From Euglena gracilis (Eukaryota): a stretch of 64,000 bases of DNA. How positions within the stretch are numbered: the first letter of the stretch is position 1; each line of letters opens with the position of its first letter. Of the stretch, positions 11,801 through 14,800 are shown piece after piece. Made by a program: the position numbers and the translations under genes. The notes below the pieces were generated by a model. It was not told where the DNA came from. It made no database searches and saw only the letters and a program-made list of their open reading frames with translations. The stretch spans positions 31,396,012-31,460,011 of the forward strand of contig CP154954.1 of the NCBI GenBank assembly GCA_039621445.1. The letters are read 5' to 3'.

Positions 11801-14800
11801 ACTTATGACTTTGCGCTTTTGTTTTGTGGAGCGACCATCTTTGCACACCCAGACAATGTTTAAACCCATTGCAGCCAACCCACTTTGGCTGAAGCAAACA
11901 GCTAGGTCACACACCAACAGACCCCCTTTTGTAAATTGAAAGTGCCACCAACCCTTTGTGGGCGCGCCTGCCCAAATCAGGCTGAATTTGTCACGGGGGA
12001 CCTTGGCATGCACCACCGCTGTCCAGACTTCGTTCACTAAAAATCCCGTTGTTGATAAGACCTTCACACTCCTCCCATGACTCCCCTCAGTATGAAGGTG
12101 CGGTGTGTGCCAGAATGTATGCGGTGTGGATGTTGCAATGTTGCACCCCAAATAATACCTTTCCAAATAAAATCCCCCCAGGTGTCCCCCCCCATTTCCC
12201 CAAAATAACACTATCTCCGGGTGGAGTTCATCAAACTAAATAATATTCCCGGGGGATGTTAATTGGCATCCTTCCAGGAGGGCAAAGTTGGTATCTTACA
12301 GCAGAAAGCTGGAGGGATAACTTAGAAAAAAATTGGGTGTCCTCTAATGACCGACACCCAATTATGGCAAGCCTCCCCCCACATTTTCTCTCTGTGCGCG
12401 CGTGCGTGCGTGCGTGCGTGCGTGCGTGCGTGCGTGCGTGCGTGCGTGCGTGCGTGCATGTGTGTGTGCGCGCGCGCGAGCGTGTGCTCGCATGTGTCCT
12501 CTAATGGAAGGGGATTGGATGGTGTGGGAAGCATGACACGATCCAATTGGCAATCAATCAAGCTGGTGACCACTCAAAGCATGTCTCCCCTTTGTTTATT
12601 GGAAGCTATAGATGGAAGCTACACATCTTACACAAAGAGGCCTACAGATGACCGACCACAAGGTATATGACACATACCGACCACAAGGTATATGATACAA
12701 GATGGTTCACCAGGTATATGACTGCATTTCAGGTTTCTGTCCTCATCGATGCGCTTCATGCGCCACATTTTTGGACTGTGGCTTCCCGTGCCGCCCTGTT
12801 TTGTCGCAACAAATCGGGGGGTTTGCCACCAGAGGGGGTTCGTTTAAACAGGGTGGGGTCCATTCCGGCGCACACCTCCGGCAGTCTGGCTGATGGCGCT
12901 GAACAGGAAGCCGGAGAAGAGCAACGTGAGGTCGGCGGAGGCGATGCCGGTGGCCGGCGTGAAGGAGAACCACGACCCGCCCTGCAGCTCCGGCGGCAGC
13001 GTGACTGGCGTGGTCTGCGAGGCGGGGGGGGGGGGGAGTCGAGTGGTGCCATGCGTGGTGGGGCCGAGAATGACCGCGCTGGGCCACACCCGCACGGGGG
13101 CTGGCGTCAGCCACGGCCGTCACCGTCGCTGCCAGGCGTTAGTTTTAAGGTGCTTTAGAACACCTTAAAATGACTGAAAAATGCGCCTCAAAATTTGTGG
13201 TCAAAATGCTTTAAAATGCTGTCAAAATTCGGACTGGCAGAATATTCTCCGACTGAGCAAAAAAAAAGCAAATCGCATCTCGCCAAAAAAACAACTCCGC
13301 GCAGAATATTATGTTTGGCTTCCCTCGAACATTGGCCATCCAACCAAGACTCAAAAAATGTGTTTCGTTTTGCCACGTACAAAATTAAAAAAGAACTTTG
13401 TTCAATGCCTGGACAACCCTTGCACTGTGGGAAATAGCACCTTAAAAATGCCTTAAAATGTTTTAAAAGGCCTTAAAAAAATACCTTAAAATGCCTTGAA
13501 GTTTTTATTTCAAAAATGCCTTTTAACTTGTGCCTGGTTGATGAACAGTATTTTGCAGCATGAATATGAAATCTTGCCCCAGGAGAGGGAGTTCGCAAAC
13601 CCCAAATGTTCACTAATTCAGGGGTTTGGTCATCACTGGTGACTCCCATTGGTGAAGAACAACGACATGTAATGGAGCAAGCAGACAGTCCAAACTCATA
13701 CCTGTCTCCCCCAGAAATTTTCCTCCAGGCTGGACCTGCAGATTTGGCTTCATGCAGTTGACTCCCTGTCTGACCCCCCCCCATTCGCCCTCCCAATTGC
13801 TTTCTTTGTTTGGCAGAAATCGGGTTGGAGTGCCTTCAGCCAATTACAAATGTTTGAAACCAGGTTGACGAGAATGTGCCCAGAGGCCAGCCCCCAAATG
13901 CCCAACATTTGTGTTCCTTTCCTGACGAAAAACATCATCCAGACATATCGATTCCCAAAGATTTCAATTTAATCAAGGGACAAAACTTGGAAAAGGTGCA
14001 CGGGTGAGAGGGTTGTCCTGGATTTCCCAACCAAAATCAGCTCAAATTCTGCCCCCCTCCCAAACAGGCATTTGCTTAAAATAAACTAACTTAAAATAAC
14101 CAACAAAAAAAAATAAAAAACATAATAAAAAAAATCCACAAAACCAATAAATACCAAAACACAAAAGATAAAACGCCCCCCCGTCTCCCCCGCCTACCAC
14201 CCCCCCCCCCCCCCCCCCCCTGCGCCTCTCCCAGCCCACCCGACATCCCCGCCCCTCCCCACTCCCCCCCCCCCCTCCCCCCCTCCCCCCCCCCCCCCCC
14301 CCCTCCCCCCCTCCCCACTGCTCGTTGCCCGTGGGATATTGCTATACGCGACCGGTCTAGGCGTAAGAGGCACACACAATGGTCCCTGCAATCCCTTAAG
14401 CAAATGCCTGCTCCCAAATCAAGAAATTTCCTGAGGGTGCCTGCAAGTGGCCGTCATTGACACTGCAGCATCAACAGGATACGAAACAATGGGCGACCTG
14501 GTGCTGCCTTTTTCTTTTGTATTGGTGTGTGAGCTGCAGTAATTGACTGGGCACTCCGCCCCCCCTCCCTCCAATTCAATTCTCCTGGGATGTAGGACCG
14601 CCACTTTCCAAGGCACTCATTGGGGAGGTCAATATTCTGGGGGGGGCGTACCGTCTCGGCGAGGCATCCATCCATGAGGGGGTCTGCCACAATGAAGTCC
14701 AACGTGGTGTTGTCGGACAGGTAGCGCTTCACCGTGTACGGCGCTATGAACCCGATACCGAAGTTGCTGCACGCTGCGGGCAAAGGGGGGGCAGTGGTAC

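What the first reader, a model, noticed from the sequence alone, without database searches (positions are those of the whole stretch)
14057..14418. CAG...CTG transposons with 8-bp TSDs have exactly the geometry of the nonconventional introns (3+5=8)
Seen: intronic elements at 14065, 22791 and 52700 begin CAG, end CTG and have 8-bp TSDs. The gene's nonconventional introns are 3 nt + CAG...CTG + 5 nt. Removing such an element plus 3 nt of the left TSD and 5 nt of the right TSD restores the original sequence exactly. TSD-like relics flank some intron stems: ACCCCAAT/GCCCCAAC (38093-42813), CAGCCATC/CAACCACC (34703-36578) and CAGCCAGC/CATCCACC (52395-54947), each 6/8; others match only 3-4/8. Inference: hAT-type MITEs act as introners, which would explain the +4/-6 register. 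A transposon origin for these introns has been suggested before; the C-rich exon repeats could inflate the matches.
Basis: partly seen in the sequence, partly recalled or inferred. Interest (0 to 1): 0.85.

Follow-up and report, generated by a model that had tools for sequence, protein, structure and literature searches.

The report
Small transposons shaped like euglenid introns
A 346-base mobile DNA element flanked by an 8-base target duplication carries the same end signals that euglenid cells use to cut their unusual "nonconventional" introns out of RNA, which makes a transposon origin of those introns testable, although no such element was seen being spliced here.

Summary
Window 14065-14410 is a real, young, non-coding MITE. 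It has perfect 15-bp TIRs (CAGGC...GCCTG) and a perfect 8-bp TSD, CTCCCAAA. Twenty simulated sequences gave none. Their termini, TSD length and target pattern (T2 in 3 of 4, A7 in 4 of 4) fit hAT rather than Merlin, but no transposase was found.

All four, in both orientations, meet the published Euglena nonconventional-intron code (N3-CAG/stem/CTG-N5|purine). Cutting by that code would remove the element plus exactly one TSD.

Published data I read fit a TSD origin: a recently gained E. agilis intron has 8-nt direct repeats, the E. gracilis consensus is CAGG/CCTG, and the two junctions show mirrored base preferences.

The window gives no direct proof. The host gene had almost no RNA in three runs, so its introns are inferred. 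The 6/8 "relics" are correctly counted but not above shuffled pairs (4.31 vs 4.12), because most introns are paralogs. The best relic intron has AAG...CTA, which fails the code.

The MITE origin is already published. The hAT identity and 3+5=8 were not found in print.

The parts
14057..14064 (.). Left target-site duplication CTCCCAAA of MITE 1
   Evidence: Identical 8-mer at 14411-14418
14065..14410 (.). MITE 1: 346-bp non-coding element with an A-rich then C-rich interior. TIRs lie at 14065-14079 and 14396-14410 (CAGGCATTTGCTTAA, 15/15)
   Evidence: The TIR stem is in the RNA minimum-free-energy fold on both strands. It meets N3-CAG/12 of 12 pairs/CTG-N5|purine on both strands
14411..14418 (.). 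Right target-site duplication CTCCCAAA of MITE 1
20068..20369 (.). MITE 2 with its TSDs: element 20076-20361 (286 bp), TIR CAGGCTGGTGCTT/CAGGCTTGTGCTT, TSD GGCTGGAA 8/8.
   Evidence: It shares CAGGCnnnTGCTT termini with MITEs 1 and 3
22783..23193 (.). MITE 3 with its TSDs: element 22791-23185 (395 bp), TIR CAGGCTTCTGCTT, TSD ATTGTGAT/ATTGTGAA 7/8. Its 3' end of 25 nt is 92% identical to that of MITE 1
52692..54326 (.). Element 4 with its TSDs: 52700-54318 (1619 bp), TIR CAGACCGCCATTTAGTG/CAGACCTCCATTTAGTG, TSD GTTGGGAT/GTGGGGAT 7/8, and subterminal GGTGATACA-type repeats. It lies inside the inferred intron 52395-54947
   Evidence: In DNA run X1 the summed word depth is 71,000-215,000 here, against about 100-130 in unique bins, and X1 contigs show joints 52749/52751/52752 to 54194, which are internally deleted relatives. 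None of 5 ORFs had a Pfam hit
10413..10706 (.). Weaker candidate of the MITE-2 family (CAGGCTG... termini). The TSD is only 6/8 and is low-complexity (C-run)
   Evidence: A 3' fragment of the same family lies at about 23788-23978
31070..60505 (-). Array of about 17 exon-like blocks encoding (T-P-S/T-A)n repeats.
   Evidence: RNA depth on its exon bins was about zero in X21, X22 and X24
34703..36578 (-). Inferred nonconventional intron atc-CAGGACGGAGCC...CCCCTG-caacc, with flanking 8-mers CAGCCATC/CAACCACC (6/8)
   Evidence: It is a paralog of 52395-54947
38093..42813 (-). Inferred intron with a 9-bp perfect stem AGGTACCCA/TGGGTACCT but AAG...CTA in place of CAG...CTG. It is flanked by the 6-nt direct repeat CCCCAA (8-mers ACCCCAAT/GCCCCAAC, 6/8)
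   Evidence: (no code-compatible candidate). CTG-to-CTA abolished splicing in PMC12501133
52395..54947 (-). Inferred nonconventional intron agc-CAGGATGAGCC...TTTCTG-catcc, with 8-mers CAGCCAGC/CATCCACC (6/8). It hosts element 4

Best explanation
SHOWN: 14065-14410 is a recently inserted, non-autonomous cut-and-paste DNA transposon (MITE). It is one of at least four elements in this window whose ends are CAG...CTG and whose insertion duplicated exactly 8 bp. INFERRED (superfamily): the elements are moved in trans by a hAT-type transposase encoded elsewhere. That enzyme would bind the TIRs and subterminal repeats and integrate across an 8-bp staggered cut at nTnnnnAn-like sites. INFERRED (RNA level): when such an element is transcribed, its TIRs pair into a stem whose outermost pairs are C-G, A-U, G-C. 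This is the cis-signal that the euglenid nonconventional-intron machinery needs (N3-CAG / about 12 paired nt / CTG-N5-6 | purine). That machinery cuts 3 nt before CAG and 5 nt after CTG. The excised piece is then the element plus 3+5 = 8 nt, which is one TSD, so the pre-insertion mRNA is restored exactly in either orientation. Elements of this kind are therefore ready-made nonconventional introns and the likeliest source of that intron class. My estimated odds: MITE with 8-bp TSD 0.95; hAT superfamily 0.7; splice-competent if placed in an exon 0.65; main evolutionary source of nonconventional introns 0.5.
For: Anatomy: perfect 15-bp TIR and perfect 8-bp TSD. Four CAG-start elements have a TSD of 7/8 or better, against none in 20 of 20 simulations. 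Perfect TSDs occur only at length 8 among lengths 6-12. Family: MITEs 1-3 share their termini. Element 4 lies in bins of very high summed word depth, and deleted relatives exist as DNA. hAT features: across the four TSDs, T at position 2 in 3 of 4 and A at position 7 in 4 of 4. This matches the Hermes/hAT preference 5'-nTnnnnAn-3' with 8-bp TSD (PMC10368747, passages). Code compliance: in 8 of 8 element-orientations the motif is CAG/CTG, at least 10 of 12 Watson-Crick pairs follow it, and the base after N5 is a purine. The spliced product equals the empty site for both perfect-TSD elements. The TIR stem is in the RNA fold. Published code: N3 is strict, N5-6 is tolerated, every single change in CAG or CTG abolishes splicing, pairing is required, and 50-bp synthetic introns built on these rules splice (PMC12501133, sections 7-11). 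Published patterns that an 8-bp TSD predicts: a strain-specific, recently gained gapC intron in E. agilis has eight-nucleotide direct repeats at its junctions. There is a pyrimidine at exon1 -1 (49/55) and at intron -1 (49/55), a purine at intron +1 (51/55) and at exon2 +1 (55/55), and A at exon2 +2 in 43/55, which is TSD position 7 (PMC4770533, passages). The E. gracilis consensus is CCAGG at +3..+7 and CCTG at -9..-6, the same CAGG/CCTG ends as the MITEs here. There are 11,653 'ss-variant' (slidable) against 4,498 invariant nonconventional introns (PMC11170887, section 10). In E. agilis, 69.1% of nonconventional introns are slidable (PMC12501133).
Against: No copy in the window lies in a demonstrable exon, and no RNA read shows an element being excised. 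The only RNA lay (35251-55250) gave about zero depth on the exons. The two single RNA reads with joints inside element 4 match joints that also exist in DNA contigs, so they are deleted copies, not splicing. No transposase domain was found in 25 ORFs scanned, so hAT rests on ends, TSD length and 4 target sites. The host gene's 8-mer identity (4.31/8) does not exceed shuffled pairs (4.12), and two of about four independent introns score 3/8, the null level. Short direct repeats also flank conventional introns in E. agilis (84.4% of all introns are slidable), so repeats alone are not TSD evidence. The mirrored Y|R preference could instead reflect an enzyme that recognises both cut sites alike. 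TSD position 8 here is A, A, T, T, not the C that is frequent at exon2 +3.
Confidence: 0.6

Rival explanations
1. Coincidence. The elements are ordinary hAT-like MITEs that play no part in intron origin. CAG...CTG, the N3/N5 spacers and Y|R at both junctions are dictated by the shape of the unknown nonconventional-splicing enzyme, and 3+5=8 is numerology.
For: There is no exonic or spliced copy in the window. Relic identity is not above shuffled pairs. The acceptor spacer may be 5 or 6 nt, so the sum is not strictly 8. Direct repeats also flank conventional introns. CAG termini and 8-bp TSDs are general hAT traits in organisms that have no such introns (recalled).
Against: Several independent features would have to coincide: CAGG/CCTG ends, a spacer sum equal to the TSD length, a purine at TSD position 6 in 4 of 4 and A at position 7 in 4 of 4 matching exon2 +1/+2, and 8-nt direct repeats at the one documented young intron.
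Confidence: 0.25
2. Nonconventional introns arise by double-strand-break repair, as the authors of PMC4770533 proposed for the intron with 8-nt repeats. The MITEs are bystanders.
For: The authors' own reading of the 8-nt direct repeats, by analogy with Daphnia intron gains (passages).
Against: Break repair predicts neither a fixed repeat length of 8, nor terminal inverted repeats beginning with CAG, nor the fixed 3/5 register. Elements with just these features and fresh 8-bp TSDs exist in this genome.
Confidence: 0.07
3. The MITEs are mobilised by Merlin transposases, the DNA-transposon superfamily reported from E. gracilis, which also makes 8-bp TSDs. They are not hAT elements.
For: Two Merlin families with 8-bp TSDs were described in E. 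gracilis (PMC8101967, passages). No hAT transposase was found here.
Against: That paper states that all Merlin TIRs start with 5'-GG. All four elements here start with CAG. The target pattern fits nTnnnnAn.
Confidence: 0.05
4. Sub-claim only: the 6/8 'TSD relics' in this gene are by-products of paralogy and C-rich repeat composition, not preserved duplications.
For: Cross pairs score as high as true pairs (4.12 vs 4.31; 6.4% of 156 cross pairs reach 6/8 or more). Ten of the 13 introns share one donor type, CAGCYNNC|CAGRAYR.
Against: In-register identity exceeds displaced registers (2.56 and 3.03; 6/8 or more in 0.8% and 4.7%). Intron 38093-42813 is unrelated to the paralog family and has a clean 6-nt direct repeat abutting a 9-bp perfect stem.
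Confidence: 0.55

Closest known systems
hAT-superfamily MITEs / non-autonomous hAT elements (Ac/Ds, hobo, Hermes type)
   Same: 8-bp TSD, short TIRs beginning with CAG, target preference nTnnnnAn, subterminal short repeats (element 4), and internally deleted derivatives.
   Different: No autonomous partner or transposase has been identified. TIR position 5 is C rather than the G of the recalled YARNG consensus. I found no hAT element reported from euglenids.
Euglenid nonconventional introns (code 5'-N3CDG-/-CH'GN5-6|R, PMC12501133)
   Same: CAG/CTG outermost stem pairs, at least 10 of 12 paired bases behind them, and a purine after N5. The E. gracilis consensus CAGG/CCTG equals the MITE termini.
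   Different: The elements here are not shown to interrupt an exon or to be removed from RNA. They carry intact TSDs, whereas most characterised introns have only short repeats.
Introner elements (Micromonas, Aureococcus, dinoflagellates, fungi; reviewed in PMC11282704)
   Same: A DNA transposon whose TIR and TSD supply the splice signals, so that excision from RNA removes the element plus one TSD and restores the reading frame.
   Different: Known introners use the spliceosome with GT/GC-AG or relaxed variants, and 3-5-nt TSDs in the cases read. Here the proposed excision is by the non-spliceosomal euglenid pathway, across an 8-nt TSD split 3+5.
Maize Ds insertions spliced as de novo introns (Giroux et al. 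1994; seen only in the reference list of PMC3935182, content recalled)
   Same: A hAT-family element inside a gene is removed from pre-mRNA.
   Different: Ds is removed by the ordinary spliceosome at cryptic sites, usually imprecisely. The removal is not set by the TIR stem or by TSD geometry.
Merlin transposons of Euglena gracilis (PMC8101967)
   Same: DNA transposons of a euglenid with 8-bp TSDs.
   Different: Merlin TIRs start with GG and are 24 bp or longer. The elements here start with CAG.

Membership tests
hAT superfamily (non-autonomous member) | Target-site duplication of exactly 8 bp | tested here: met
   TSDs are 8/8, 8/8, 7/8 and 7/8 for the four elements. There is no perfect TSD at lengths 6, 7 or 9-12 among 3,343 TIR pairs
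hAT superfamily (non-autonomous member) | Short TIRs with hAT-type terminal nucleotides (CAG/TAG...; the consensus YARNG is recalled) | tested here: met
   The termini are CAGGC (three elements) and CAGAC (one). The TIRs are 13-17 bp. Position 5 is C, not G
hAT superfamily (non-autonomous member) | Insertion preference 5'-nTnnnnAn-3' (PMC10368747) | tested here: met
   T2 in 3 of 4 and A7 in 4 of 4 TSDs. The sample is only four sites
hAT superfamily (non-autonomous member) | Related autonomous copy encoding a BED-finger/DDE/hAT-dimerisation transposase | not testable with these tools
   No whole genome is held. 25 window ORFs gave no transposase domain in Pfam. Two metagenome scans found no copies
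hAT superfamily (non-autonomous member) | Repeated, mobile family | tested here: met
   MITE family: three full copies plus related copies in 64 kb. Element 4: very high summed word depth and deleted relatives in DNA run X1. Insertion polymorphism was not tested
Merlin superfamily | TIRs beginning with 5'-GG (PMC8101967) | tested here: not met
   All four elements begin with CAG
Euglenid nonconventional intron | cis code N3-CDG ... CH'G-N5-6 followed by a purine | tested here: met
   Met in 8 of 8 element-orientations
Euglenid nonconventional intron | Base pairing of the roughly 12 nt after CAG with those before CTG | tested here: met
   12/12, 9-10/12, 11/12 and 11/12 Watson-Crick pairs. The stem is in the minimum-free-energy fold of MITE 1 on both strands
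Euglenid nonconventional intron | Interrupts an exon and is absent from mature RNA | tested here: inconclusive
   Element 4 and the host gene were laid with three RNA runs. Exon depth was about zero, and there were no RNA-specific joints among those shown.
Introner element | Many near-identical copies that each form an intron in different genes | not testable with these tools
   This needs the genome and transcriptome. None is held

The most novel reading that the evidence does not exclude
Most euglenid nonconventional introns (about 70% of all introns in E. agilis) are decayed hAT-type MITEs. The still-unknown excision machinery is tuned to hAT geometry: it reads the TIR stem (CAG/CTG) and cuts 3 nt and 5 nt outside it, across exactly one 8-bp target-site duplication. 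Any hAT insertion into an exon, in either orientation, is therefore erased from the mRNA without a scar. On this reading the excised full-length RNA circle reported for these introns would carry one reconstituted TSD at its junction.
Probability: 0.5. Interest if true: 0.9.

Novelty: new variant of a known kind. Interest (0 to 1): 0.7.

Why it matters
The origin and the odd +4/-6 register of euglenid nonconventional introns have been open questions since the 1990s. A MITE origin was proposed in 2014, at a time when no transposon was known from euglenids. This window supplies concrete candidate source elements. It also supplies a simple quantitative link: the TSD length of 8 equals the experimentally defined spacers of 3 + 5. 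That link turns the hypothesis into direct tests, namely an 8-mer register test on existing intron catalogues and a knock-in of this 346-bp element in the published EgGSL2 assay. If it holds, it names the transposon superfamily behind one of the largest known intron invasions. It would also explain why such insertions are tolerated in coding sequence.

Tried and rejected
Whole genome: none is held, so no genome-wide 8-mer test or copy census was possible.

Earlier notes of this scan: three look-ups returned nothing.

The look-up of sequencing runs: no RNA holder listed.

Read laying: I chose 35251-55250 because it holds 10 inferred introns and element 4. It gave no exon coverage in RNA runs X21, X22 and X24, read at about 5-6% of each run. 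There was no RNA-specific joint among the 15 joints shown (621 were not shown).

Metagenome scans with the MITE 3' end and with the element-4 TIR: 0 hits each.

Pfam on 25 ORFs: no transposase or any other family. The only match was one sub-threshold DUF1501 hit.

Rfam on the whole window: 0 matches.

Search for paralogous empty sites of the six elements inside the window: none usable. The one flank paralog, 46204-46418 against 48851-49069, diverges at the insertion point.

Rejected reading: that the 52700 element ends at 53097, where a third GTTGGGAT copy lies. There is no TIR at that point, and the true partner TIR is at 54302-54318.

Weak candidates: 10413-10706 and 46427-47034 (TSD 6/8, low-complexity flanks) were not counted as confirmed. 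The pair 534-847 (ACA start, 8/8) was discarded because it lies inside a longer inverted repeat.

Rows dropped before the 8-mer test: three of 16 junctions were left out because they had no convincing CAG/CTG-purine candidate. Their best candidates had identities of 1 (56191 to 55198), 1-2 (34528 or 34547 to 33486 or 33499) and 2-3 (32657 or 32570 to 31857 or 31809). For junctions 52239 and 37822 I used the candidate with the paralogous donor, ranked 3rd and 2nd by stem score, rather than the top-ranked one.
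Full report
THE OBSERVATION AT 14057-14418. The sequence reads CTCCCAAA | CAGGCATTTGCTTAA ... TTAAGCAAATGCCTG | CTCCCAAA. This is a 346-bp element (14065-14410) with perfect 15-bp terminal inverted repeats and a perfect 8-bp direct duplication of the flank. The bases just outside the TIRs (A and C) cannot pair, so the ends fall exactly at CAG and CTG, and the duplication is exactly 8 bp. 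The interior is an A-rich and then a C-rich tract with no coding potential. The TIR pattern has 7 matches in the window at up to 3 mismatches, against 2.13 expected, and 0 of 100 shuffles reached 7. Four of those matches are the two ends of this element and of the element at 22791-23185.

A SYSTEMATIC INVENTORY. I scanned all pairs of 12-nt inverted repeats (at most 2 mismatches, 40-6000 bp apart). After removing low-complexity arms, 5,120 pairs remained. Five of these had flanking 8-mers matching at 7/8 or better. Four start with CAG:
- 14065-14410, TSD 8/8.
- 20076-20361, TSD 8/8 (GGCTGGAA).
- 22791-23185, TSD 7/8 (ATTGTGAT/ATTGTGAA).
- 52700-54318, TSD 7/8 (GTTGGGAT/GTGGGGAT).

The fifth pair (534-847) lies inside a longer inverted repeat and is not a terminal pair. 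Twenty second-order Markov simulations of the window gave 0-7 such pairs (mean 1.85), and none began with CAG in any of the 20. With an extra filter for outward-maximal TIRs, 3,343 pairs remained, of which 84 start with CAG. Perfect flanking repeats then occurred at length 8 (2 pairs; displaced-flank controls gave 0, 0, 1, 0, 0, 0) and at no length from 6, 7 or 9-12. That filter drops the 22791 element, because its flanking T/A could extend the TIR by one pair.

MITEs 1-3 share CAGGCnnnTGCTT...AAGCAnAnGCCTG termini, and MITEs 1 and 3 share a 25-nt 3' end at 92% identity. Weaker relatives lie at 10413-10706 and at about 23788-23978.

WHAT KIND OF ELEMENT. An 8-bp TSD plus CAG termini points to hAT. 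The four TSDs are CTCCCAAA, GGCTGGAA, ATTGTGAT and GTTGGGAT. They have T at position 2 in 3 of 4 and A at position 7 in 4 of 4. This is the 5'-nTnnnnAn-3' preference reported for the hAT transposase Hermes (PMC10368747, passages read). Element 4 has subterminal GGTGATACA-type repeats.

In DNA run X1, element 4 sits in bins whose summed word depth is 71,000-215,000, against about 100-130 in unique bins. The tool warns that this figure is not a copy number. X1 contigs also join 52749, 52751 or 52752 directly to 54194. Short, internally deleted relatives therefore exist as DNA.

Merlin is the only DNA-transposon superfamily I found reported from E. gracilis. It also makes 8-bp TSDs, but all its TIRs start with GG (PMC8101967, passages). 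That feature is not met here. No transposase domain was found in 25 window ORFs, and no genome is held. The hAT assignment therefore rests on cis features only.

THE LINK TO NONCONVENTIONAL INTRONS: WHAT IS PUBLISHED. I read the abstract, sections 5 and 7-11, and passages of PMC12501133 (Nomura et al. 2025). Its findings are:
- The required signature is 5'-N3CDG-/-CH'GN5-6|R(exon)-3'.
- The 3-nt donor spacer tolerates neither +1 nor -1. The acceptor spacer is 5 nt, and 6 is tolerated.
- Every single substitution inside CAG or CTG, including CTG to CTA, abolishes splicing.
- About 12 nt of pairing behind the motif is needed.
- Fully synthetic 50-bp introns built on these rules splice.
- 69.1% of nonconventional introns are 'slidable' because of junction direct repeats.

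PMC11170887 (Gao et al. 2024; section 10 and passages) gives the E. gracilis consensus as CCAGG at +3..+7 and CCTG at -9..-6. These are the same CAGG/CCTG ends as the MITEs here.

PMC4770533 (Milanowski et al. 2016; passages) reports junction preferences in 55 introns:
- Pyrimidine at exon1 -1 (49/55) and at intron -1 (49/55).
- Purine at intron +1 (51/55) and at exon2 +1 (55/55).
- A at exon2 +2 (43/55) and C at exon2 +3 (30/55).

The same paper reports that a strain-specific, recently gained gapC intron in E. agilis ACOI 323 has 'eight nucleotide direct repeats' at its junctions. The authors tentatively ascribed these repeats to double-strand-break repair.

The MITE-origin idea itself is published (PMC3935182, passages). 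It is repeated in PMC12501133, in PMC12621601 and in the review PMC11282704, which calls CAG/CTG the TIR and mentions 'TSD-like' repeats (passages).

WHAT IS NEW. I found no paper that names hAT, or that equates the 3+5 spacers with an 8-bp TSD:
- 'Euglena' + 'hAT' + 'target site duplication': 0 papers.
- 'nonconventional introns' + 'hAT': only an unrelated barley paper.
- 'Euglena' + 'hAT' + 'transposons' + 'genome': only the Merlin paper.
- 'nonconventional intron' + 'target site duplication': the review and three unrelated papers.
- The words hAT and duplication are absent from PMC12501133. The terms hAT, 8 bp, 8-bp and 8 nt are absent from the review.

Subscription papers and supplements were not searchable, so this is not proof of absence.

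DO THE ELEMENTS MEET THE CODE? Yes, by sequence. In all 8 element-orientations the motif is CAG/CTG, at least 10 of 12 bases behind it are Watson-Crick paired, and the base after N5 is a purine. Equivalently, TSD position 6 is a purine and position 3 a pyrimidine in 4 of 4 elements. Removing N3 + element + N5 gives the empty site exactly for both perfect-TSD elements on both strands. The TIR stem of MITE 1 closes the minimum-free-energy RNA fold on both strands. A TSD origin also explains three published patterns. The two junctions show the same Y|R preference, because both lie between TSD positions 5 and 6. Intron +3 and exon2 +3 are both C-biased, because both are TSD position 8. Exon2 +2 is A, because it is TSD position 7, the A of nTnnnnAn. 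These are inferences from published numbers, not tests on this genome.

THE HOST GENE AND THE 'RELICS'. On the minus strand, 60505 to 31070, lie about 17 blocks encoding (T-P-S/T-A)n. I searched each of 16 junctions for frame-preserving N3-CDG...CHG-N5 pairs. Fifteen junctions had candidates. For 12 of them I accepted a CAG/CTG candidate followed by a purine. Ten of the 13 introns later scored share one donor type, CAGCYNNC|CAGRAYR (seven CAGGACGGAG, one CAGGATGAG, two CAGAACAGAT). These are paralogs from duplication of exon-intron units.

Junction 43091 to 38103 had no code-compatible candidate. That intron (38093-42813) has a 9-bp perfect stem but AAG...CTA in place of CAG...CTG. By PMC12501133 this form should not splice. 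It is flanked by a clean 6-nt direct repeat, CCCCAA.

None of this is verified by RNA. Three RNA-seq runs, read at 5-6% of each, gave about zero depth on exon bins. For example, bins 42588-43254, 45256-45922 and 51926-52592 gave at most 0.06. No RNA-specific joint was among the 15 joints shown, and 621 were not shown. The array may be silent or a pseudogene.

Three junctions were dropped and are listed under Tried and rejected. The results were:
- True pairs: mean identity 4.31/8.
- 156 shuffled cross pairs: 4.12, with 6.4% at 6/8 or more.
- Displaced right 8-mers: 2.56, with 0.8% at 6/8 or more (n=1040).
- Displaced left 8-mers: 3.03, with 4.7% at 6/8 or more.

The similarity is therefore register-specific but not pair-specific. 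With roughly four independent introns scoring up to 6, 6, 3 and 3, it is suggestive at best.

VERDICT. The intron side rests on inference in this window but on good published experiments elsewhere. It is coherent, fits several published patterns that no one appears to have connected, and is directly testable. No splicing of such an element was observed here.

Noticed in passing
window 53098-53105: A third perfect copy of element 4's target 8-mer GTTGGGAT (9-mer GGTTGGGAT) lies inside the element, 398 bp from its left end, with no TIR next to it. It could be chance (roughly 2% for an 8-mer in 1.6 kb), a composite, or an aberrant insertion. It is unexplained.
   Followed up: partly
window 31070-60505 (minus strand): A large array of exon-like blocks encodes T-P-S/T-A tetrapeptide repeats (mucin-like). 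The exon-intron units are duplicated; for example, 56180-56584 and 60086-60505 are nearly identical. Depth was essentially zero in three RNA-seq runs, so the array may be silent or a pseudogene.
   Followed up: partly
window 38586-39252, 46590-47256, 49258-50591, 54594-55250: These intronic stretches have summed DNA word depth of 340,000-737,000, against about 100-130 in unique bins. They also carry low bidirectional RNA coverage. They are very high-copy repeat families that I did not classify.
   Followed up: no
window 46427-47034: A 608-bp candidate element has 10-bp perfect termini CAGGGCAGAA and a G-rich 6/8 flank match. DNA contigs show deleted relatives (joints 46456 to 46949 and 46520 to 46916). 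It may be a further CAG...CTG family.
   Followed up: partly
window 420-900 and 6032-6136: A set of long inverted repeats lies here (73 nt at 93%, 105 nt at 85%). It forms a foldback-type structure unrelated to the CAG...CTG elements.
   Followed up: no
window 36143-36351 and 38350-38367: Dozens of RNA reads per run end here in long poly-G or poly-C loose ends at the (GGGTATGGGGG)n arrays. Reads from many G-rich repeat loci, or artefacts, pile up at these places.
   Followed up: no
window 7731-7940, 11594-11767, 30780-31071: Long microsatellites lie here: (CTATA)42, (GT)87 and (CA)146.
   Followed up: no
window 38093-42813: This inferred 4.7-kb intron has AAG...CTA instead of CAG...CTG. Published single changes of this kind abolish nonconventional splicing, so this gene copy may be disabled.
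   Followed up: partly
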